Origin: Maricaulis sp.
GTDB taxonomy: Bacteria; Pseudomonadota; Alphaproteobacteria; Caulobacterales; Maricaulaceae
NCBI RefSeq assembly: GCF_015665295.1
Contig: NZ_JADFAJ010000011.1
Span: 21,652 to 85,651, forward strand
Reading direction: 5' to 3'
Length of the DNA stretch: 64,000 nucleotides
Below the pieces are notes generated by a model. The model was not told the DNA's origin. It made no database searches and saw only the letters and a list, made by a program, of their open reading frames with translations. Of this stretch, positions 9,688 to 34,035 are shown one piece after another (positions within the stretch are counted from its first letter, which is position 1; each line of letters starts with the position of its first letter). The translations under genes were made by a program, and so were the position numbers.

Positions 9688-10077
9688 ATGAATGCGGATT
9701 TCGAATTCGACCCTGACAACGGTCTCTGTATTTACCGGATTTCGGGCGTGATCAGCGCCAGAGCCCTGCTGAATACGTTCGCCCGCGCCCGATCGCACCC
9801 GGACTGGTCGGACCGCTACGACTTCCTCACCCTGCTTTCCAACGCCTCCCTCGCCCAGCTTCCGGCCGACGCCATGACGCGGCTGCAGGTACAGATGGCC
9901 GACGCTGATCCGGTCAACAAGGGGCCGCGCCGGCGTGCCGCCATCGTCTACGATGACGACCTGTCCAGGGCCATGCTGACCTATTGGGAGATGGTCGCCG
10001 GGAAAACCCTGACGACCGACGAGCGGGTCTTCACCAGCGAGGTCAAAGCCCGCGCCTGGTTGTCTGAACCGCGCTGA
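9688..10077 (+). CDS. hypothetical protein
   Basis: This 129-aa ORF has protein-like composition and no competing ORF. No family was recognised with confidence. Confidence 0.45.
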   Translation: MNADFEFDPDNGLCIYRISGVISARALLNTFARARSHPDWSDRYDFLTLLSNASLAQLPADAMTRLQVQMADADPVNKGPRRRAAIVYDDDLSRAMLTYWEMVAGKTLTTDERVFTSEVKARAWLSEPR

Positions 10078-17068: not shown

Positions 17069-18457
17069 CTAATTCCAGGGCGTTAAGTCAAGGTTAGGGA
17101 AACGCGATTCGCGGGAAACCCCTGCAGCGGCATCATAGATTTCCACGTCCAGGCCAAGCGTTTCCGCAGAGGCCAGCCCCATGGCCTGCAACAGGCGATA
17201 GCCGGCAACAAAGCTGTCGCGCTCGGCGGTCACGAAGGTGAGACGCGATTCGAGCAATTCCTGTTCGGCATTGAGCACATCCAGCGTGGTGCGGATGCCG
17301 ACGAAGGCCTCCTGCTGCACGCCATCCAGCGCAATCTCGTTGGCACGCACGGCCTGGCGGCTCGATTCGATCACGGCCAGCGACGCAACATAGGAATACC
17401 AGGCATTGGTCACGGCTTCGGTGACCTGGCGCCTCGCGTCACGGACCAGGAAGCGGGCCTGCTCTTCCTGCGCCACGGCGGCGCGGACGCGCGACCGGTT
17501 GAGGCCGCCCGTGAAGATCGGCATCGAGACCTGGCCCATGATCGATGCGCTGTCGCGAACATCGCCGGAAAAGCTTGAATCCCGGGCCGAAGAGGCCGAG
17601 GCGGTCAGCGAGACTTCCGGACGCAAGGCGCCGCGGGCAATGCGGATCGCATGCTGGGCGGCCTCTTCGCTATAACGGGCAGCCAGCAATTGCGGGCTGT
17701 TGTCGAAGGCGTATTCCGCGGCATCGGCCAGATTGTCCGGCAGGGGCGGCAGGGCGGGCGGTTCGCTCAGCGAGGCGGCCGGCTGACCGGTCACGCGCTC
17801 ATAGGCAGCGCGGCTGGCCGCCATCTGCGCCTGGGCGGCAGACAGCTGGGTCTGGGCCAGCGACAGGCGCGCCTCGGCCTGCGACACGTCGGTCCGGGTG
17901 ATCTCGCCAACCTCGAACCGGTCGCGCGCGGCCCGCAGTTGCTGGGCGAGGACTTCGACATTGTTCTGGCGGATCTCGACGACATTGCTGTCGCGTCGCA
18001 CATCCATGAAAGCCGTGACGGCACTCACCAGCACGGTCTGCTCGGTCGCACGAAGGTTTTCACGCCCCGCCATCACGACCGCGGTCGCCTGGTCGATCGC
18101 CCCGTCGATCCGGCCACCGCGATAGATCGGCTGGCTGGCCGAAAGGCCGTAATTCTTGGGCGTTGCATCCGACTCGTAACTATTGGTGGAATTGTTGATC
18201 TGCGAGAAGCTTTCGCCTTCCGCGTGCGATCGCGAGATCGAGGCCGAGGCTGAAACCGACGGCAGACGTCCCGCCTCGGCCTGGACGCGCCCCTCATCGG
18301 TGGCACGCAGGCGGGCGCGTTCGGCCTGCAGGGTCGGGTTGGAGTTGTAGGCCAGTGCCAGCGTCTCTTCGAGCGTTTGTGCCTGCCCGGCGCCGGCAAG
18401 CGCGAGGGCCGATGCACCCGCTGCCAGAACGAGCGCCAAATTCTTCAATCGCGACAT
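17069..18457 (-). CDS. tolC: TolC-family outer membrane efflux protein
   Basis: The 462-aa product has a signal peptide (ALALAGAGQAQ), TLEETLALAYNSNPTLQA and two repeated OEP halves. Confidence 0.9.
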   Translation of the reverse strand: MSRLKNLALVLAAGASALALAGAGQAQTLEETLALAYNSNPTLQAERARLRATDEGRVQAEAGRLPSVSASASISRSHAEGESFSQINNSTNSYESDATPKNYGLSASQPIYRGGRIDGAIDQATAVVMAGRENLRATEQTVLVSAVTAFMDVRRDSNVVEIRQNNVEVLAQQLRAARDRFEVGEITRTDVSQAEARLSLAQTQLSAAQAQMAASRAAYERVTGQPAASLSEPPALPPLPDNLADAAEYAFDNSPQLLAARYSEEAAQHAIRIARGALRPEVSLTASASSARDSSFSGDVRDSASIMGQVSMPIFTGGLNRSRVRAAVAQEEQARFLVRDARRQVTEAVTNAWYSYVASLAVIESSRQAVRANEIALDGVQQEAFVGIRTTLDVLNAEQELLESRLTFVTAERDSFVAGYRLLQAMGLASAETLGLDVEIYDAAAGVSRESRFPNLDLTPWN

Positions 18458-18768: not shown

Positions 18769-19422
18769 TCAGAGGACGAATCCGGCCTCGGCCTGGAAAC
18801 CCGGCAGCGGCGCGACATTGGCGTCGAAAACGACACGCTCGCCGATCCCTGCTGCCGAACGGGTAAAGATGGTCGCCTTGCCGATCGGCCCCTTGCTGAT
18901 CACGGCAGCCAGACGTCCGCCGGGCGCCAGCTGGTCGAGCCAGGCCTGGGGCACCTCATCGACCGCCCCATTGACGAAGATCACGTCGAACGGTCCCTGC
19001 TTGGCAACGCCGGCCGCCAGATCGCCCTCGATCACGACGGCATTGTCGGCACCAATGTCAGACAGCAGGCTGGGCGCGCGCGCCAGGCTGTCCTCGTCTG
19101 ACTCAAGCCCCACGACGGTTCCGGCCATACGCGCCAGGATTGCAGTCGAATAGCCGCGGGCACACGCGATATCGAGCACCAGCTCATCCGGCTGGATGTC
19201 CGCCGCATGCACCAGCTTGGCGAAATCGCGCGGCCGCATCAGCGTGCGCTCATCGCCGATCGCGACCTGGGAATCAGAATAGGCTGAGGCGCGCCGGGCG
19301 CGCGGCACGAAGAGGTGTCGCGGCACATCAAGGAAGGCCGCGATCAGGCGCCGGTCCGTGACATCTGACGGGCGGATCTGGCAATCCACCATCTGCTTGC
19401 GCGCCGTTTCGAATTCGCTCAC
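18769..19422 (-). CDS. pcm: protein-L-isoaspartate O-methyltransferase family protein
   Basis: The product contains MVDCQIRPSDVTD..L..AFLDVPRHLFVP and LDIACARGYSTAILA (SAM motif). I propose the GTG start at 19422, preceded by GGGAGAG. The ORF-track ATG at 19500 is an alternative. Confidence 0.8.
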   Translation of the reverse strand: MSEFETARKQMVDCQIRPSDVTDRRLIAAFLDVPRHLFVPRARRASAYSDSQVAIGDERTLMRPRDFAKLVHAADIQPDELVLDIACARGYSTAILARMAGTVVGLESDEDSLARAPSLLSDIGADNAVVIEGDLAAGVAKQGPFDVIFVNGAVDEVPQAWLDQLAPGGRLAAVISKGPIGKATIFTRSAAGIGERVVFDANVAPLPGFQAEAGFVL

Positions 19423-19940
19423 GAGGCTCTCCCTGACCAGGCCCTGTTGGGGTACGGATTGTCGCTGATATATCCCGGCATCGCACAGCGCCGCAAGCAT
19501 GCCACTGCGCGCGCGTGGAATTGCCCTGCAATCGGAAAGGGGATGACCGTAGCTCTTCGCCCTGACAGGGCGAAGCGGATCGCCCCATGGCGGCGAGACG
19601 GCGTGGGTGACGGGAGGTCGGTGACAGAACGCCGGCCCAGCTTCGGCACTGAACGACCGCCCCTCAGTAGCTGGCGCATTGGAATCGGCGGCGAGCGCGT
19701 CCGGGAAAGCTCCGCGAACGGGATGCCGGCGAAGTCACCTTGTGCAAATCCACCGGCTGTCGGCATCGGCCAGCACTCCCCTGCCCTCCCATTCTTTCGG
19801 CGTGAAAGCGTGCGGAGCGAACGGCGTGTTGTCACACGACCAGCCCGTCGCGGAAAAGCGCGCGCGGCGCGGGCCCGGGGATCAGCCATCTGCTCGGCCG
19901 GAGGATGTCCATTTCAGGTGATATGGCGGAAGATCCTGAA

Positions 19941-19985
19941 ATGGTGAGCCGACAGGGATTCGAACCCTGGACCTACTGATTAAAA
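19941..19985. repeat. att-like direct repeat: duplicated 3' part of tRNA-Lys
   Basis: atggtgagccgacagggattcgaaccctggacctactgattaaaa is identical to 21856..21900. Identity ends inside the anticodon-loop position. Confidence 0.9.
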
Positions 19986-20129
19986 TTTACAATATTACTT
20001 CATTAAATCAACGAGTTACCTGTCTAGCCCGCCGAATTCGCGCCATTTGAAATCAAGCACTTATATGAACCACGTTAAACGGCAACACTCTTCGCGGCAG
20101 CCGGTTGGCCCACACGCGAAAGCTACGCA

Positions 20130-20783
20130 TCACATCAAATAGTTCCAGAAGATCGCTCCGATTGTGCACGCTAGAGCGAGAACAAAACCAATTGCCGCGA
20201 ACAACAGAACCCGCCGGGTGTGTTTGCCGAGCCACATTGTGAGCGTGTGAGTAACCCCCTTCCGCACATTCTCCTCTGAAAAGTCGTATGGATTTCTGTT
20301 CGACAATGCCGCCAACTCGTTCCGTATCGGCGCGGCAATATCCTCGGTCGGCTGCTTGAGTCCTGCCATGGCAGCAGAAAGGTTGGCGAGCTCAAGATCT
20401 TCTGTAGCGTGCGCCATCGCCAATGAATGTGCCGCGAACGCGTGCTGGCGAAGCGCATAACCATCCTGCAGCAGGAACCCGACAAATGTGATCGTGACGA
20501 ATATCCCGATGGCAACGACCGCTAGCACGAACGCCTCAATCGGGACGTCATCCGCGACCGCATCAGCCAACCAAATCAAGATCGACCCGGCTGCTGCTCC
20601 GCTAGCTAGAAAGAGCAGCCTGTTCATTTCGAGCAGCGCCTGTTCTGCCTTCTGCCATGCACTATCCTTGGAGGCTCGATAGGAAGCGACCTGTCTTGCA
20701 AGTCGCTCCGCGCTCAAACGAGCAAATCTTTCCGGAACCTCCTCAACCACATCGGCCTCATCGCTGGTCATCGCGCCCTCCAT
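20130..20783 (-). CDS. three-TM membrane protein of unknown function
   Basis: The product is 217 aa (alternative ATG at 20771). It has an acidic helical N-terminus followed by three hydrophobic segments. Its start overlaps the upstream DUF4238 gene. Confidence 0.6.
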   Translation of the reverse strand: MEGAMTSDEADVVEEVPERFARLSAERLARQVASYRASKDSAWQKAEQALLEMNRLLFLASGAAAGSILIWLADAVADDVPIEAFVLAVVAIGIFVTITFVGFLLQDGYALRQHAFAAHSLAMAHATEDLELANLSAAMAGLKQPTEDIAAPIRNELAALSNRNPYDFSEENVRKGVTHTLTMWLGKHTRRVLLFAAIGFVLALACTIGAIFWNYLM

Positions 20784-21636
20784 CGGCCTTACCAGGCCAG
20801 ATCGAACTTAAACTCGAAATTAGGATTTCTGACCTGGAGCAAACCGCATCGCTACGGCGCATGGTAGCAACATTCACCGCACGAACATCGCTATCGTCCT
20901 TCACTCCAAAAACCTTGTAGCCGCCTCCATCCCCGCAGAGGCCTATTGCGATATCCGGGGCGATCGGCATCGACATTTCAACACTCGCGTCCCATAGCGG
21001 GAGTGAAGCATCGGGGACGCTCGCCACGCGTTGACGAAACCGTCCTATCGGCACGTCTCCCAGCACGAACGACTTTTTTGAGTTGGCGAGGACCGCGAAG
21101 AACAAGTCTTTCCTAGCGAACACCTCCGCGATGTTGTCGCTACCCTTCACCAGGGTGTCGATCAGAGCATTATCTAGGACATCAAGCAGCTCTAGTCGGA
21201 CGCCTTCGACGCTCTCCTCAGGCACAGATCCATCCAGCAACGCATCGTCGAGACGTTCAATTTCCTCGCATTTCACCCGATTAAGCTGATAGGGAACCCG
21301 CATAAACTGGTGATAGAAAAACCCTTCCAGAGAGCGCCGCTCTGGTCCGGTAAACAATGGCGCCCGGCCTGCACGCAAATCGCGAACAGCCCTGTCGATC
21401 AAGGGGGCCCATTCACTTTCGGCCTGCCCGTACGCCCGTTCAACTGCCGGGTCTCGCAGATTTTCGCCGTCGCGATATGAATACAAATGCCGCTGCCAAA
21501 AAACGCCTGACGGAGATCGTAGCTCTGCTCTCCGGTCGGCGCGCGCTCTTTCAAGATACCAAACTCGGCCGTCCGATCTCGCGAAGTTCCGGATTACGAA
21601 CTGTGGCACGAAATGATGACGCTTGGGCTTCCCCAT
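20758..21636 (-). CDS. DUF4238 domain-containing protein
   Basis: The 292-aa product has the N-terminus MGKPKRHHFVPQFVIRNFA..., which matches the HH-VPQ-F-L-NF signature I associate with DUF4238. Confidence 0.65.
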   Translation of the reverse strand: MGKPKRHHFVPQFVIRNFARSDGRVWYLERARADRRAELRSPSGVFWQRHLYSYRDGENLRDPAVERAYGQAESEWAPLIDRAVRDLRAGRAPLFTGPERRSLEGFFYHQFMRVPYQLNRVKCEEIERLDDALLDGSVPEESVEGVRLELLDVLDNALIDTLVKGSDNIAEVFARKDLFFAVLANSKKSFVLGDVPIGRFRQRVASVPDASLPLWDASVEMSMPIAPDIAIGLCGDGGGYKVFGVKDDSDVRAVNVATMRRSDAVCSRSEILISSLSSIWPGKADGGRDDQR

Positions 21637-21856
21637 AGGACCGCCTGCCTTCTCAACGGGAGGGCGACCACTGTGCCAGCGATTCGAGCCAAAGACCGAC
21701 GAATATGCAATCAGATGAAATTAGCAGGAATTTCAATAACTTACTTGTTAAGCACGCACCAGTTCACACGTTCGAGTGTTAAAAGGCTCCAGAGATCCGC
21801 CAACCGGTGGCGAACGGAAAGAGCAACAAGCATTTGAATTTTATGGAAGAAAAGGA

Positions 21857-21932
21857 TGGTGAGCCGACAGGGATTCGAACCCTGGACCTACTGATTAAAA
21901 GTCAGTTGCTCTACCAGCTGAGCTATCGGCTC
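21857..21932 (-). tRNA. tRNA-Lys (anticodon UUU)
   Basis: The reverse complement is GAGCCGATAGCTCAGCTGGTAGAGCAACTGACTTTTAATCAGTAGGTCCAGGGTTCGAATCCCTGTCGGCTCACCA. It folds as a cloverleaf with a 7-bp acceptor stem, a CTTTTAA anticodon loop, GGTTCGAATCC in the T-arm and an encoded CCA. Confidence 0.93.
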
Positions 21933-32675: not shown

Positions 32676-32790
32676 CGAACTCCCAGCAAGCAGATTATGG
32701 CAAGGTCTGCGCCGGGGCGCCTGAACAGAGCGGAAGCGGTTTTGGCACAGATCGATGCGCAAAAAGGCCGACGTGAGCCAGGAGATATCG

Positions 32791-34035
32791 ATGCGGCAAT
32801 ATGGATCACCGATATTGATCGACGCCAGCGGGACTGTAGCGAAGCCCCTTTCCCCGGTGCAACGGAGCGGGAGCGCAGAGGTGCGCGGATACGACGAGGC
32901 GTTTATCCAGCGCCTCGTGCTCAACCACCCGGCGCTCTTGCCGCTGAACGAAATCGACCCAACCTGCGTCGATCCCGTTCCTGTTTGTGATGAGCTGCCC
33001 ACGCGGGCCGGACCTATCGATGTATTCATGATCACTCCGACGGGCATGCCACTGCTTGTCGAATGCAAGCTCTGGAACAACCCCCAGGCTCGACGTGAAG
33101 TCGTCGGGCAGATCATCGACTACGCCAAAGAGCTTCAAAAGTGGTCCTACGAAGACCTCCAGCGAGCTTGCGCCGCGCGCAAAGGGGCGGACTTCGAGCT
33201 ATTCAATTTTGTGGCCTCTTGCACGGGAAACCTCGATCAGAAGACGTTCACCGACAATGTCACCCGAAACTTGCGGGATGGCCGCTGCGTGCTCCTCGTT
33301 GTCGGAGACGGCATTCGCGAGGGAGTCGAGGCGATAGGCGAATACCTGACTGGATCAGGCGCATTGCAGTTCAGCTTCGGCCTTGTCGAACTGCCTGTAT
33401 TCGAGACCACCGACGGGCAACGTCTCGTCACGCCGCGCACGTTAGCGAAGACAACCATCATAGGTCGATACGTGTTTGGCTTCGCCCCGGATGGCGCTCC
33501 CCGAATTATCGATGACGGCTCGACCGAAGAAGAAGAGCAAGACGAGACCGTAGACGAGGCCAAACGCCTCATCAGCGGCGAGAATTTTGCGTTCTGGACT
33601 GACGTGCTTTCCAACCTAGAACTGGACGATCGCTCACAAGAGCTGGCTAAACCAAAGACAAGCGAGACGATCAATTTCTGGCTTCCCGCGCCCCGTGGCG
33701 GCACCATGATCAAAGACAACTGGATCACCCTATATCTGGCCCGCAGCAGCAATCAGGCTGGAATTTTCTTCACAGGCACACGCACCGGCTTTGGTGGTGA
33801 AATTGCTCGCGCGATGCTTCCCGAAATCGAGGACATCCTGGAAGAGCTTGGCCCTGAGGCTCGGCAGACTGAGCCGAAGTCTGGAAAGATCAACATAGGC
33901 GAAGCGCATGTTCTTGGCCCGCTGCACGACTCCAACAATCGCGCGGAGTTGGTCTCGTGGATGCGCGAGCGTGTGAATCGATACGTCAACACCTTCCGGC
34001 CGCGAGTGGAGGCAATCGCGGAGACATTGGATTGA
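32791..34035 (+). CDS. PD-(D/E)xK (RecB/NucS-like) nuclease-domain protein with DUF4268-like C-terminal region
   Basis: The start at ATG 32791 has AGGAG 8 nt upstream. The product contains GPIDVFMITPTGMPLLVECKLWNNPQARREVVGQIIDYA, giving D...ExK followed by QxxxY. The C-terminus (FAFWTDVLSNL...WITLYLAR...ELVSWMRERV) resembles DUF4268. G+C is lower (52/100 at 33181-33280). Confidence 0.55.
   Translation: MRQYGSPILIDASGTVAKPLSPVQRSGSAEVRGYDEAFIQRLVLNHPALLPLNEIDPTCVDPVPVCDELPTRAGPIDVFMITPTGMPLLVECKLWNNPQARREVVGQIIDYAKELQKWSYEDLQRACAARKGADFELFNFVASCTGNLDQKTFTDNVTRNLRDGRCVLLVVGDGIREGVEAIGEYLTGSGALQFSFGLVELPVFETTDGQRLVTPRTLAKTTIIGRYVFGFAPDGAPRIIDDGSTEEEEQDETVDEAKRLISGENFAFWTDVLSNLELDDRSQELAKPKTSETINFWLPAPRGGTMIKDNWITLYLARSSNQAGIFFTGTRTGFGGEIARAMLPEIEDILEELGPEARQTEPKSGKINIGEAHVLGPLHDSNNRAELVSWMRERVNRYVNTFRPRVEAIAETLD

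What the first reader, a model, noticed from the sequence alone, without database searches (positions are those of the whole stretch)
20130..21636. Overlapping DUF4238 + three-TM gene pair as the only cargo of a tRNA-Lys islet: candidate undescribed two-gene defence/abortive-infection-like module
What the sequence shows:
- ORF 20758..21636 (292 aa) opens with MGKPKRHHFVPQFVIRNF. I associate this HH-VPQ-F-x-x-NF signature with Pfam DUF4238, a family with no assigned biochemistry.
- Its last 26 nt overlap the start of ORF 20130..20783 (217 aa). The alternative ATG at 20771 still overlaps by 14 nt, so the two genes are probably translationally coupled.
- The second protein has an acidic helical N-terminus of about 50 aa and three hydrophobic helices (LLFLASGAAAGSILIWLADAV, AFVLAVVAIGIFVTITFVGFLL, VLLFAAIGFVLALACTIGAIFWNYL). 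It has no enzymatic motif.
- Both genes are AT-richer than the core (55/100 versus 69/100 in hand samples) and sit alone between att-like repeats.

Inference: a soluble protein of unknown function plus a small membrane protein, in a horizontally acquired hotspot, resembles the layout of many abortive-infection systems.

From memory and unverified: DUF4238 proteins occur in defence islands and possibly in a validated two-gene system (Dazbog). I do not recall a 3-TM partner there, so this pairing may be new.
Basis: partly seen in the sequence, partly recalled or inferred. Interest (0 to 1): 0.8.

Follow-up and report, generated by a model that had tools for sequence, protein, structure and literature searches.

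The report
DUF4238 defence gene with membrane partner
A 1.9-kb piece of foreign DNA inserted at a lysine tRNA gene of a marine Maricaulis bacterium carries a distant relative of a known single-gene anti-phage protein (DUF4238), coupled to a small membrane protein found almost nowhere else; this is an interesting local variant, not a widespread new two-gene system.

Summary
ORF 20758..21636(-) is a DUF4238 protein (Pfam E 5.9e-22). It overlaps a gene for a protein with three hydrophobic segments (most likely start ATG 20771, 14-nt overlap, GGAGG 5 nt upstream). The pair is the only cargo of a low-GC islet (0.54 vs 0.645) bounded by an exact 45-nt repeat of the 3' part of tRNA-Lys. No integrase is present.

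- DUF4238 is already a validated single-gene anti-phage system (E. coli P2 hotspot, Rousset 2022), not Dazbog. The window protein is a distant member: 19% identity, core motifs intact, no hit to PADLOC's narrow DUF4238 model.
- The membrane protein is an orphan. A search of 1.84 billion representative proteins finds only Maricaulis-type relatives.
- The pairing is not conserved. The closest outside DUF4238 (38%) is sole cargo of a tRNA-Val mini-islet, a 59% relative of the membrane protein is alone between tRNA-Lys repeats, and none of nine other DUF4238 loci has a membrane partner.

Most likely this is a co-expressed stack in a cis-mobilisable-type islet: an autonomous DUF4238 defence gene plus a lineage-specific membrane module. 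Recurrent integrase-less mini-islets at tRNA genes are the more unusual by-product. Interest is moderate.

The parts
21857..21932 (-). tRNA-Lys (anticodon UUU), the integration target
   Evidence: ARAGORN. Rfam tRNA at 78.3 bits, E 1e-16. Conserved next to the lipoprotein and Tgt genes in 14 Maricaulis/Hyphobacterium genomes.
21856..21900 (.). Proximal direct repeat (attL-like): 44 nt of the tRNA 3' part, from the anticodon loop to the 3' end, plus 1 nt
   Evidence: Exact 45-nt repeat D1. Only two copies in the window.
21637..21855 (-). 219-nt non-coding leader of the islet, the presumed promoter region of the operon. It contains a small hairpin, CGCCACCGGTTGGCG, at 21798-21812.
   Evidence: Conserved in the orthologous islets L002 and L007 but not in L001. 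No sigma-70 consensus match found, so the promoter is inferred, not shown.
20758..21636 (-). DUF4238-family gene (292 aa)
   Evidence: Pfam PF14022 E 5.9e-22. hhalign to the validated E. coli TA007 defence protein: probability 90.8%, E 1.2e-6, 245 columns. Invariant F18, E66, E73, R113, P115, F190, P224 and N255 across 9 diverse members, including the E. coli protein. dN/dS 0.27-0.29.
20777..20781 (-). Shine-Dalgarno GGAGG for the membrane-protein gene. It lies inside the 3' end of the DUF4238 ORF, 5 nt before ATG 20771.
   Evidence: Read from the sequence. GGAGG and the ATG are invariant in L002 and L007.
20130..20771 (-). Orphan membrane-protein gene (213 aa; a 217-aa form is possible from ATG 20783). 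Layout: acidic helical N-terminus, a hairpin of two hydrophobic segments, a loop of about 84 aa, and a C-terminal hydrophobic segment.
   Evidence: ORF. Conserved start. Hydropathy. dN/dS 0.22-0.27. No hit in Pfam, NCBIfam, PHROGs, PADLOC or PDB. Only Maricaulis-type relatives among 1.84 billion representatives.
19986..20129 (-). 144-nt non-coding distal arm of the islet
   Evidence: Conserved in L002 and L009. No terminator-like site found.
19941..19985 (.). Distal direct repeat (attR-like), a partial tRNA-Lys copy
   Evidence: Not called as a tRNA.
19909..19940 (.). Native attB flank: the sequence that directly follows the tRNA in an islet-free genome
   Evidence: Window 19909-19985 matches L033 (M. 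maris DSM 4734) 9775-9851, which adjoins its tRNA-Lys, at 88%.

Best explanation
The locus is a 1,915-bp, horizontally acquired, integrase-less islet in a Maricaulis chromosome.

How it got there. It was inserted by site-specific recombination into the 3' part of tRNA-Lys(UUU). The crossover lay in the anticodon-loop region, which left a 45-nt target duplication. Structurally it is a cis-mobilisable-type element: att-like repeats and cargo, with no recombinase of its own.

What it carries. The single operon holds two genes.
1. A divergent member of the DUF4238 family, the family of the validated single-gene anti-phage system from the E. coli P2 hotspot.
2. A lineage-restricted orphan protein with three hydrophobic segments. 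Its ribosome-binding site and start codon lie inside the end of the first gene, so the two are made together.

How it most likely works (inferred, not shown).
- The DUF4238 protein is the autonomous phage-responsive defence determinant, as in E. coli.
- The membrane protein is a separate membrane-acting module, for example exclusion or abortive killing. It already circulated as cargo at this tRNA-Lys site and became coupled to DUF4238 in the Maricaulis lineage.
- It may add to or modulate the phenotype, but is probably not an obligate partner.

Shown here: the anatomy, family membership, purifying selection, clean insertion against empty sites, restriction of the pair to one lineage, and solo occurrence of each gene.

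Inferred: the defence function, the biochemical role of either protein, and mobilisation in trans.
For: Family and motifs:
- Pfam E 5.9e-22.
- Profile match to the validated E. coli protein over nearly its full length.
- Family-wide invariant residues intact.
- The predicted fold (pLDDT 70.8, pTM 0.71) matches one other protein at E <= 0.001, an uncharacterised protein of Stenotrophomonas phage Smp131 (E 1.8e-7, TM 0.54).

Defence phenotype of the family: PMC9122126. DUF4238 domains also occur in validated TIR systems, PMC11350192.

Defence or mobile-element contexts of distant homologues:
- integrase + SIR2 at a tRNA-Glu
- reverse transcriptase
- MqsRA
- VapC, integrase and DprA
- OLD-family protein and S1-P1 nuclease
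- type I RM
- ParE

Insertion:
- Exact 45-nt repeat and a GC dip.
- L027 is the empty site for L002, and the L033 native flank matches window 19909-19985.
- 14 species representatives lack both genes.
- No integrase was found in the window with three integrase queries.
- A tyrosine integrase sits at the same tRNA-Lys in L030.

Coupling and selection: conserved overlap with GGAGG-ATG; dN/dS 0.22-0.29 for both genes.

Separability:
- The 38% DUF4238 homologue is sole cargo of a 1,257-bp tRNA-Val islet.
- The 59% membrane-protein homologue is alone between tRNA-Lys repeats with no DUF4238 remnant.
- No multi-segment membrane neighbour at nine other DUF4238 loci.
Against: - No experiment links this DUF4238 subfamily to phage defence. 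It shares only 19% identity with the validated protein.
- PADLOC's DUF4238-Pers model scores the E. coli protein at 718 bits but does not detect the window protein.
- There are no known defence genes next to the islet in the window.
- Neither protein has relatives in phage genomes or IMG/VR.
- Tight translational coupling, conserved at three divergence levels, could mean the two proteins do work together. This would favour the obligate two-gene rival.
- L001 is a 1.2-kb unitig, so a DUF4238 gene elsewhere in that genome cannot be excluded.
- The biochemistry of DUF4238 is unknown, and its fold has no PDB match.
Confidence: 0.5

Rival explanations
1. Obligate two-component abortive-infection system. 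The soluble DUF4238 protein senses infection and activates the membrane protein, which depolarises or permeabilises the membrane. Neither gene protects alone.
For: - Overlapping genes with a conserved internal SD and ATG.
- Similar purifying selection on both genes.
- The pair is retained in all Maricaulis-type islets at 84-94% identity.
- DUF4238 can work with a separate effector domain in validated TIR systems.
- In L022 a DUF4238 gene is overlapped by a different effector-like gene, an S1-P1 nuclease. This suggests DUF4238 may pair with variable effectors.
- TM1 carries a small-residue motif, SGAAAGS, that is invariant in all four aligned homologues, including the 57-59%-identical L001 protein.
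Against: - All paired copies are orthologues of one insertion, so they count as a single observation.
- The validated E. coli DUF4238 protects as a single gene.
- The nearest outside homologue is the only gene of its islet.
- The membrane protein occurs alone.
- In one TARA assembly (L006) the membrane gene is split while DUF4238 is intact.
Confidence: 0.25
2. The islet is not defence. It is a decayed remnant of a larger integrative element or prophage whose two surviving genes serve the element (for example addiction or toxin-antitoxin-like stabilisation, or lysis or exclusion functions) or do nothing useful for the host.
For: - No integrase or mobility gene in the islet or the window.
- The same tRNA-Lys holds an integrase-bearing phage-like island in L030.
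- tRNA-proximal islands are known to accumulate partial tRNA repeats and degenerate elements (bioRxiv 10.1101/2020.12.28.424599).
- No hit to any defence model.
Against: - Both genes are intact and under purifying selection across lineages about 13% divergent in DNA.
- The islet has only 219 and 144 nt of non-coding DNA and no pseudogene debris.
- Four different mini-islets (window type, L001, L034, L012) are equally clean. This is not expected from random decay.
- DUF4238 has a documented defence phenotype.
Confidence: 0.15
3. The pairing is an annotation or assembly artefact: the second ORF is not a real gene, or the islet is a chimeric join at the repeat.
For: - Logan contigs carrying the islet are unitigs that break at the repeats (L003, L004, L042, L001).
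- The window's distal synteny differs from other Maricaulis genomes.
Against: - The same islet sits in long contigs, including a 714-kb NCBI contig and several independent TARA scaffolds, with identical order.
- The membrane-protein ORF is conserved at 59% identity with matching length and hydrophobic segments, and dN/dS is about 0.25.
- The native flank continues past the distal repeat.
Confidence: 0.03

Closest known systems
Single-gene 'DUF4238' anti-phage system (Rousset et al. 2022, E. coli TA007, plasmid pFR101; PADLOC model DUF4238-Pers PDLC03000; called Rst_DUF4238 in one preprint)
   Same: - Same Pfam family, PF14022.
- Similar length (292 vs 309 aa).
- Alignable over about 245 columns (hhalign probability 90.8%).
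- Shares the N-terminal R-H-H-F motif, two invariant glutamates, R-x-P, the F-(V/I)-x-x-D-x-P stretch and a C-terminal N.
- Both are carried as cargo of mobile DNA.
   Different: - 19% identity.
- Not detected by the PADLOC model.
- Sits in a tRNA-Lys mini-islet of an alphaproteobacterium, not a P2-like prophage hotspot. There is no phage-genome relative, whereas the E. coli clade is in phage pro483.
- Has a translationally coupled membrane-protein gene, whereas the validated system is one gene.
- Phenotype untested.
TIR-domain defence systems of E. coli that include a DUF4238 domain (Nat Commun 2024, PMC11350192)
   Same: They show that DUF4238 can be combined with a distinct effector module.
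   Different: The partner there is a TIR NADase, not a membrane protein. No TIR or other enzymatic domain is present here. No sequence comparison with those proteins was possible, because their sequences were not retrieved.
Cis-mobilisable elements (CIMEs, as defined in ICEberg 2.0, PMC6323972) and remnant elements in tRNA-proximal islands (tycheposon islands, bioRxiv 10.1101/2020.12.28.424599)
   Same: - Flanked by att-type direct repeats derived from the tRNA target.
- No integrase or transfer genes.
- Sits at a site that in a related genome holds an integrase-bearing element (L030).
- Presence/absence polymorphism with clean empty sites.
   Different: - Very small (1.2-1.9 kb), carrying one operon, or a single gene in L001 and L012.
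- Trans-mobilisation is not demonstrated.
- Described CIMEs are, from memory, derivatives of ICEs in Firmicutes rather than single-operon defence cassettes.
Defence systems built from a soluble component plus small membrane proteins (e.g. '2TM + 1TM + TIR' from phage AC1 and RexAB-like, both in Rousset 2022 Table S2)
   Same: General layout: a soluble protein with a small multi-pass membrane protein in one operon.
   Different: No detectable sequence relationship. hhalign of the membrane-protein profile against the 2TM and 1TM proteins gives probability 0.3% and 0.1%. This is a resemblance of layout only.

Membership tests
Pfam PF14022 (DUF4238) | Score above the curated gathering threshold over most of the model | tested here: met
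   78.8 bits against a cut-off of 27, E 5.9e-22, model positions 1-271 of 281.
Pfam PF14022 (DUF4238) | Conserved family residues: N-terminal HH-F-x-P/S-Q motif, two Glu, R-x-P, F-V/I-x-x-D-x-P, C-terminal Asn | tested here: met
   F18, E66, E73, R113, P115, F190, P224 and N255 are invariant in a 9-sequence alignment that includes the validated E. coli protein. H7-H8 and D194-x-P196 are present in the window protein.
Validated single-gene DUF4238 defence system (Rousset 2022; PADLOC DUF4238-Pers) | Detected by the system's own HMM (PDLC03000) | tested here: not met
   No PADLOC hit at E <= 1 for the window protein. The control E. coli TA007 protein scores 718 bits.
Validated single-gene DUF4238 defence system (Rousset 2022; PADLOC DUF4238-Pers) | Stand-alone single-gene architecture | tested here: not met
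   A second gene overlaps by 14 nt with an internal SD. The closest outside homologue, P0007, is stand-alone.
Validated single-gene DUF4238 defence system (Rousset 2022; PADLOC DUF4238-Pers) | Confers phage resistance when expressed | not testable with these tools
   Needs plaque or infection assays.
Dazbog (DzbAB) | Proteins match the Dazbog models; the system contains a DUF262 protein | tested here: not met
   No PADLOC hit for either protein at E <= 1. That PADLOC v2 includes Dazbog models is from memory. Pfam finds no DUF262. A review assigns DUF262 to Dazbog (PMC10952713).
Cis-mobilisable element (att-flanked, non-autonomous integrative element) | Flanked by direct repeats that duplicate the integration target | tested here: met
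   Exact 45-nt repeat of the tRNA-Lys 3' part. Orthologous islets have 53-59-nt repeats.
Cis-mobilisable element (att-flanked, non-autonomous integrative element) | No integrase, excisionase or transfer genes of its own | tested here: met
   Only two ORFs are under selection between the repeats. tblastn with three integrases finds nothing in the 64-kb window.
Cis-mobilisable element (att-flanked, non-autonomous integrative element) | Excised or integrated in trans by a cognate integrase | not testable with these tools
   Indirect evidence only: an integrase-bearing island at the same tRNA-Lys in L030, clean empty sites, and other mini-islets at the same site.
Conserved two-gene system (DUF4238 + membrane partner) | Co-localisation of homologues of both genes in independent genomic contexts | tested here: not met
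   The pair is found only in orthologous Maricaulis islets. The genes occur apart in L001 and L012/L013. None of nine other DUF4238 loci has a neighbour with several hydrophobic segments. The membrane protein has no wider family.

The most novel reading that the evidence does not exclude
The islet is one example of an unrecognised class of miniature, integrase-less cassettes of 1.2-1.9 kb. Each is bounded by tRNA-derived att repeats and carries a single gene or small operon, possibly defence-related. Island or prophage integrases that target the same tRNA would swap them in trans, making an integron-like cassette exchange at tRNA hotspots in marine alphaproteobacteria. Within this cassette, the DUF4238 protein and the orphan membrane protein would form a genuine sensor-effector abortive-infection pair. 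DUF4238 would then be a portable sensor that can be wired to different effectors: TIR, nuclease or membrane protein.
Probability: 0.15. Interest if true: 0.65.

Novelty: new variant of a known kind. Interest (0 to 1): 0.4.

Why it matters
DUF4238 is a validated anti-phage family with no known mechanism, and here it has no structural match in the PDB.

A natural variant wired to a membrane protein could show whether DUF4238 acts as a sensor that hands over to exchangeable effectors. Other relatives are wired to TIR or overlapped by a nuclease gene. That would make its mechanism experimentally approachable, using single-gene versus two-gene constructs and motif mutants.

Separately, four independent integrase-less mini-islets suggest that single genes or small operons can be exchanged at tRNA sites without carrying their own recombinase:
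- DUF4238 + membrane protein at tRNA-Lys;
- the membrane protein alone at tRNA-Lys;
- three small ORFs at tRNA-Lys;
- DUF4238 alone at tRNA-Val.

Such elements are easy to miss, because island finders look for integrases and defence finders miss this divergent DUF4238.

If neither idea holds, the locus is simply a new, divergent member of a known defence family in an under-studied marine genus.

Tried and rejected
- Dazbog link: rejected. There are no PADLOC hits, and the literature ties Dazbog to DUF262.
- Function of the membrane protein by homology: nothing found in Pfam, NCBIfam, PHROGs or PADLOC, in PDB sequences, in plasmids, in IMG/VR, or among 1.84 billion representatives. In that last search, the three long repetitive proteins matching only residues ~108-163 were judged spurious. 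hhalign against the Rousset 2TM and 1TM proteins was negative. The AlphaFold model was too poor to search (pTM 0.34).
- Fold of DUF4238: no PDB match (best E 0.79) and no PDB sequence match. Only a phage Smp131 uncharacterised protein matched in BFVD.
- Wider survey of this DUF4238 subfamily:
  - The first genome-contig scan found nothing because the patterns were too specific.
  - The metagenome scan returned only a contig already known.
  - The viral scan returned nothing.
  - The survey therefore rests on nine loci.
- DUF4238 remnant upstream of the lone membrane gene in L001: none, even at tblastn E <= 100.
- Shared arm sequences among the different mini-islets (possible integrase arm sites): alignments show no convincing common motif.
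- 'Rearrangement exactly at the distal repeat': I first thought the window's homology with L002 and L009 ended at the repeat. Finer comparison shows the native flank continuing to about 19909 and a further patch at 19645-19728. The synteny break therefore lies further out and is unrelated to the att site.
- Promoter and terminator scan: no sigma-70 match. The one terminator-like site lies inside the DUF4238 ORF and is below chance expectation.
- Rfam: only the tRNA.
Full report
**1. What is in the sequence**

The window comes from a Maricaulis genome. A 100%-identical DUF4238 protein is labelled 'Maricaulis sp.', and 14 Maricaulis or Hyphobacterium genomes share the neighbouring genes.

- tRNA-Lys(UUU) lies at 21857..21932 on the minus strand.
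- Its 3' part, from the anticodon loop to the 3' end plus one base, recurs as an exact 45-nt direct repeat at 21856-21900 and 19941-19985. There are no other copies in the window.
- The 1,870 bp between the repeats have GC 0.544, against 0.645 for the rest of the window.
- Two minus-strand genes lie between the repeats. ORF 20758..21636 (292 aa) matches Pfam DUF4238 at E 5.9e-22. ORF 20130..20783 has no match in Pfam, NCBIfam, PHROGs or PADLOC.
- The second gene most likely starts at ATG 20771, giving 213 aa. This is the only start conserved in all homologues, the one gene callers chose, and it follows a GGAGG 5 nt upstream. The overlap with the DUF4238 stop codon is then 14 nt.
- Hydropathy gives three hydrophobic segments: roughly residues 52-72, 80-101 and 187-209 by inspection, within the 51-72, 71-104 and 185-213 ranges of the scan. 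An acidic helical N-terminus precedes them, and a loop of about 84 residues separates the second and third.
- Both genes evolve under purifying selection, with dN/dS 0.22-0.29 against the 84-87% orthologues.

**2. The islet is a clean insertion at a recombination hotspot and has no recombinase**

- The same two-gene islet, with 53-59-nt repeats, occurs in a 714-kb contig labelled M. maris (L002) and in several TARA scaffolds (L006-L011).
- None of the 14 species-representative genomes has either gene.
- L027, about 90% identical to L002 in the flanks, is an exact empty site. The sequence that follows the tRNA in L027 is the one that follows the distal repeat in L002.
- The 33 nt beyond the window's distal repeat match the tRNA-adjacent flank of M. 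maris DSM 4734.
- The ancestral downstream neighbours are a carboxylesterase, a KefB-type exchanger and a YkuD-domain protein.
- In L030 a tyrosine integrase (PF00589, E 3.4e-20) followed by phage-like genes abuts the same tRNA-Lys.
- L034 carries a different 1,778-bp integrase-less islet there, with three small ORFs. One is DUF6864, one has a single hydrophobic segment, and one has an N-terminal hydrophobic segment.
- No integrase is detectable in the 64-kb window.
- The repeat runs from the anticodon loop to the 3' end. This is the classical footprint of tyrosine-integrase insertion into tRNA genes (established knowledge, from memory: Williams 2002).

Structurally the islet fits the definition of a cis-mobilisable element: att sites plus cargo and no mobility genes. 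The term is used in ICEberg 2.0. Partial tRNA repeats and degenerate elements are also known from tRNA-proximal islands in marine bacteria.

**3. What DUF4238 is known to do**

The family is not a blank.
- Rousset et al. 2022 cloned a single DUF4238 gene from the P2-prophage hotspot of E. coli TA007. It gave strong resistance to T7 (PMC9122126).
- DUF4238 is listed among anti-phage systems in later surveys. PADLOC has a model for it, DUF4238-Pers.
- DUF4238 domains also occur in validated TIR systems of E. coli.
A review places DUF262 in Dazbog, and neither window protein hits any PADLOC model.

I retrieved the validated protein sequence from the paper's Table S2A.
- The window protein is 19% identical to it (BLASTP E 6e-5).
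- It aligns over 245 columns by profile comparison (probability 90.8%, E 1.2e-6).
- Eight residues are invariant across nine diverse members including the E. coli protein. The R-H-H-F and D-x-P motifs are also present in the window protein.
- PADLOC's narrow model scores the E. coli protein at 718 bits and does not see the window protein.

The window protein is thus a true but distant family member that automated defence finders would miss.

An AlphaFold model built on 8 sequences (pLDDT 70.8, pTM 0.71) has no structural neighbour in the PDB (best E 0.79). In BFVD it has one below E 0.001, an uncharacterised protein of Stenotrophomonas phage Smp131 (E 1.8e-7). No biochemical activity can be assigned.

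**4. Is the pair a system?**

This is where the interpretation weakens.
- The membrane protein is an orphan. The word-indexed search of 5.8 billion proteins found two relatives.
- An exhaustive profile search of 1.84 billion representatives found only the same cluster, a fragment, and three repetitive proteins matching a short Ala-rich stretch.
- All paired copies are orthologues of one insertion event.
- The only independent relative of the membrane protein (59% identity, L001) sits alone in a 1.2-kb unitig. That unitig begins and ends with the tRNA-Lys 3' repeat, and 390 nt upstream show no trace of DUF4238.
- The nearest DUF4238 outside Maricaulis (38%, P0007) is the only gene of a 1,257-bp islet. 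That islet is bounded by 53-nt tRNA-Val repeats and has GC 0.435 against 0.62.
- More distant DUF4238 genes lie next to the following, and none has a neighbour with several hydrophobic segments:
  - an integrase and SIR2 at a tRNA-Glu;
  - a reverse transcriptase;
  - MqsRA;
  - VapC, an integrase and DprA;
  - an OLD-family ATPase, with an overlapping S1-P1 nuclease gene;
  - a type I restriction system;
  - ParE.
- In one TARA assembly the membrane gene is split while DUF4238 is intact.

Evidence on the other side:
- The overlap and internal SD are conserved.
- The two genes show similar constraint.
- The TIR and nuclease associations show that DUF4238 can be wired to different partners.

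**5. Best reading**

The locus is a horizontally acquired, non-autonomous tRNA-Lys islet with a bicistronic operon.
- The DUF4238 gene is most likely an autonomous phage-defence determinant, as are its validated and nearest relatives.
- The membrane protein is a lineage-specific module that also travels alone at this site and has become translationally coupled.
- I put about 0.5 on this reading, about 0.25 on an obligate sensor-effector pair, about 0.15 on non-defence remnant cargo, and a few per cent on artefact.

Shown: the anatomy, family membership, selection and insertion history. Inferred: the defence function, the biochemistry and trans-mobilisation.

**6. Novelty and score**

The DUF4238 gene is a new, divergent member of a known defence family. 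The coupled membrane partner is an undescribed but narrowly distributed variant. The recurrent integrase-less mini-islets at tRNA genes are the most unusual aspect, but they rest on four cases and no mobility evidence.

- Classification: new variant of a known kind.
- Interest: 0.4.
- Most novel reading not excluded: trans-mobilised tRNA-att cassettes carrying a genuine DUF4238-membrane-effector system. Probability about 0.15, interest about 0.65 if true.

Noticed in passing
L034:8033-9811: A different integrase-less 1,778-bp low-GC islet at the same tRNA-Lys in another Maricaulis MAG. It is bounded by an exact repeat of at least 30 nt of the tRNA 3' end. Its cargo is three small same-strand ORFs: 185 aa with an N-terminal hydrophobic segment, 134 aa DUF6864 (E 2.6e-15), and 85 aa with one hydrophobic segment. 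None hits PADLOC.
   Followed up: partly
L001:1-1236: A 59% homologue of the membrane protein is the only gene in a 1.2-kb Logan unitig that starts and ends with the tRNA-Lys 3'-end repeat. There is no DUF4238 remnant upstream. The membrane gene can therefore be sole cargo at this site.
   Followed up: yes
L012:97-1406 and L013:1243-2552: A 38%-identical DUF4238 gene is the only cargo of a 1,257-bp islet flanked by 53-nt tRNA-Val repeats (94% identical). GC is 0.435 against 0.62 for the flanks, and there is no integrase.
   Followed up: yes
L030:8699-9766: A tyrosine integrase (PF00589, E 3.4e-20) lies directly beside the same tRNA-Lys in a complete uncultured Maricaulis chromosome. Phage-like genes follow it (PBECR3 nuclease, DUF551). 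It is a candidate source of trans-acting recombinase for this att site.
   Followed up: partly
window:19500-19940 and beyond: The carboxylesterase-KefB-YkuD block follows tRNA-Lys in most Maricaulis genomes but is absent from the whole window. PCMT (18769..19500) and TolC (17069..18457) follow instead. Residual homology to the native intergenic region at 19909-19940 and 19645-19728 puts the synteny break at about 19500-19645, not at the att repeat.
   Followed up: partly
L006:6678-7384: In one TARA scaffold the membrane-protein gene is split into 86-aa and 95-aa ORFs while the DUF4238 gene is intact. This is either a frameshift or pseudogene, or an assembly error.
   Followed up: no
L022:4112-5432: In a Neorhizobium contig a shortened DUF4238 gene (239 aa) is overlapped by 53 nt by a gene with an S1-P1 nuclease domain. 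An OLD-family ATPase gene lies 3.7 kb downstream. This may be another DUF4238-plus-effector arrangement.
   Followed up: partly
L024:1526-1601 and 2298-2373: A 76-nt duplication (78% identity) of the 5' end of an isochorismatase gene brackets an RHH-ParE toxin-antitoxin pair just downstream of a DUF4238 gene. It looks like a target duplication from insertion of the TA cassette.
   Followed up: no
window:21798-21812: A small hairpin, CGCCACCGGTTGGCG, lies in the islet leader 45 nt downstream of the tRNA 3' end. It is conserved in L002 and L007. It could be a tRNA terminator remnant or an operator.
   Followed up: no
window:16885-16968: A tandem repeat of a 13-nt unit (TTCAGTCTGCGTC, 6.5 copies, 88% matches) lies just beyond the stop codon (3' end) of the TolC-like gene.
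   Followed up: no
window:33001-34500: The second GC dip of the window (0.57-0.59 against a mean of 0.64). It overlaps a 426-aa ORF at 32755..34035(+). Not examined.
   Followed up: no
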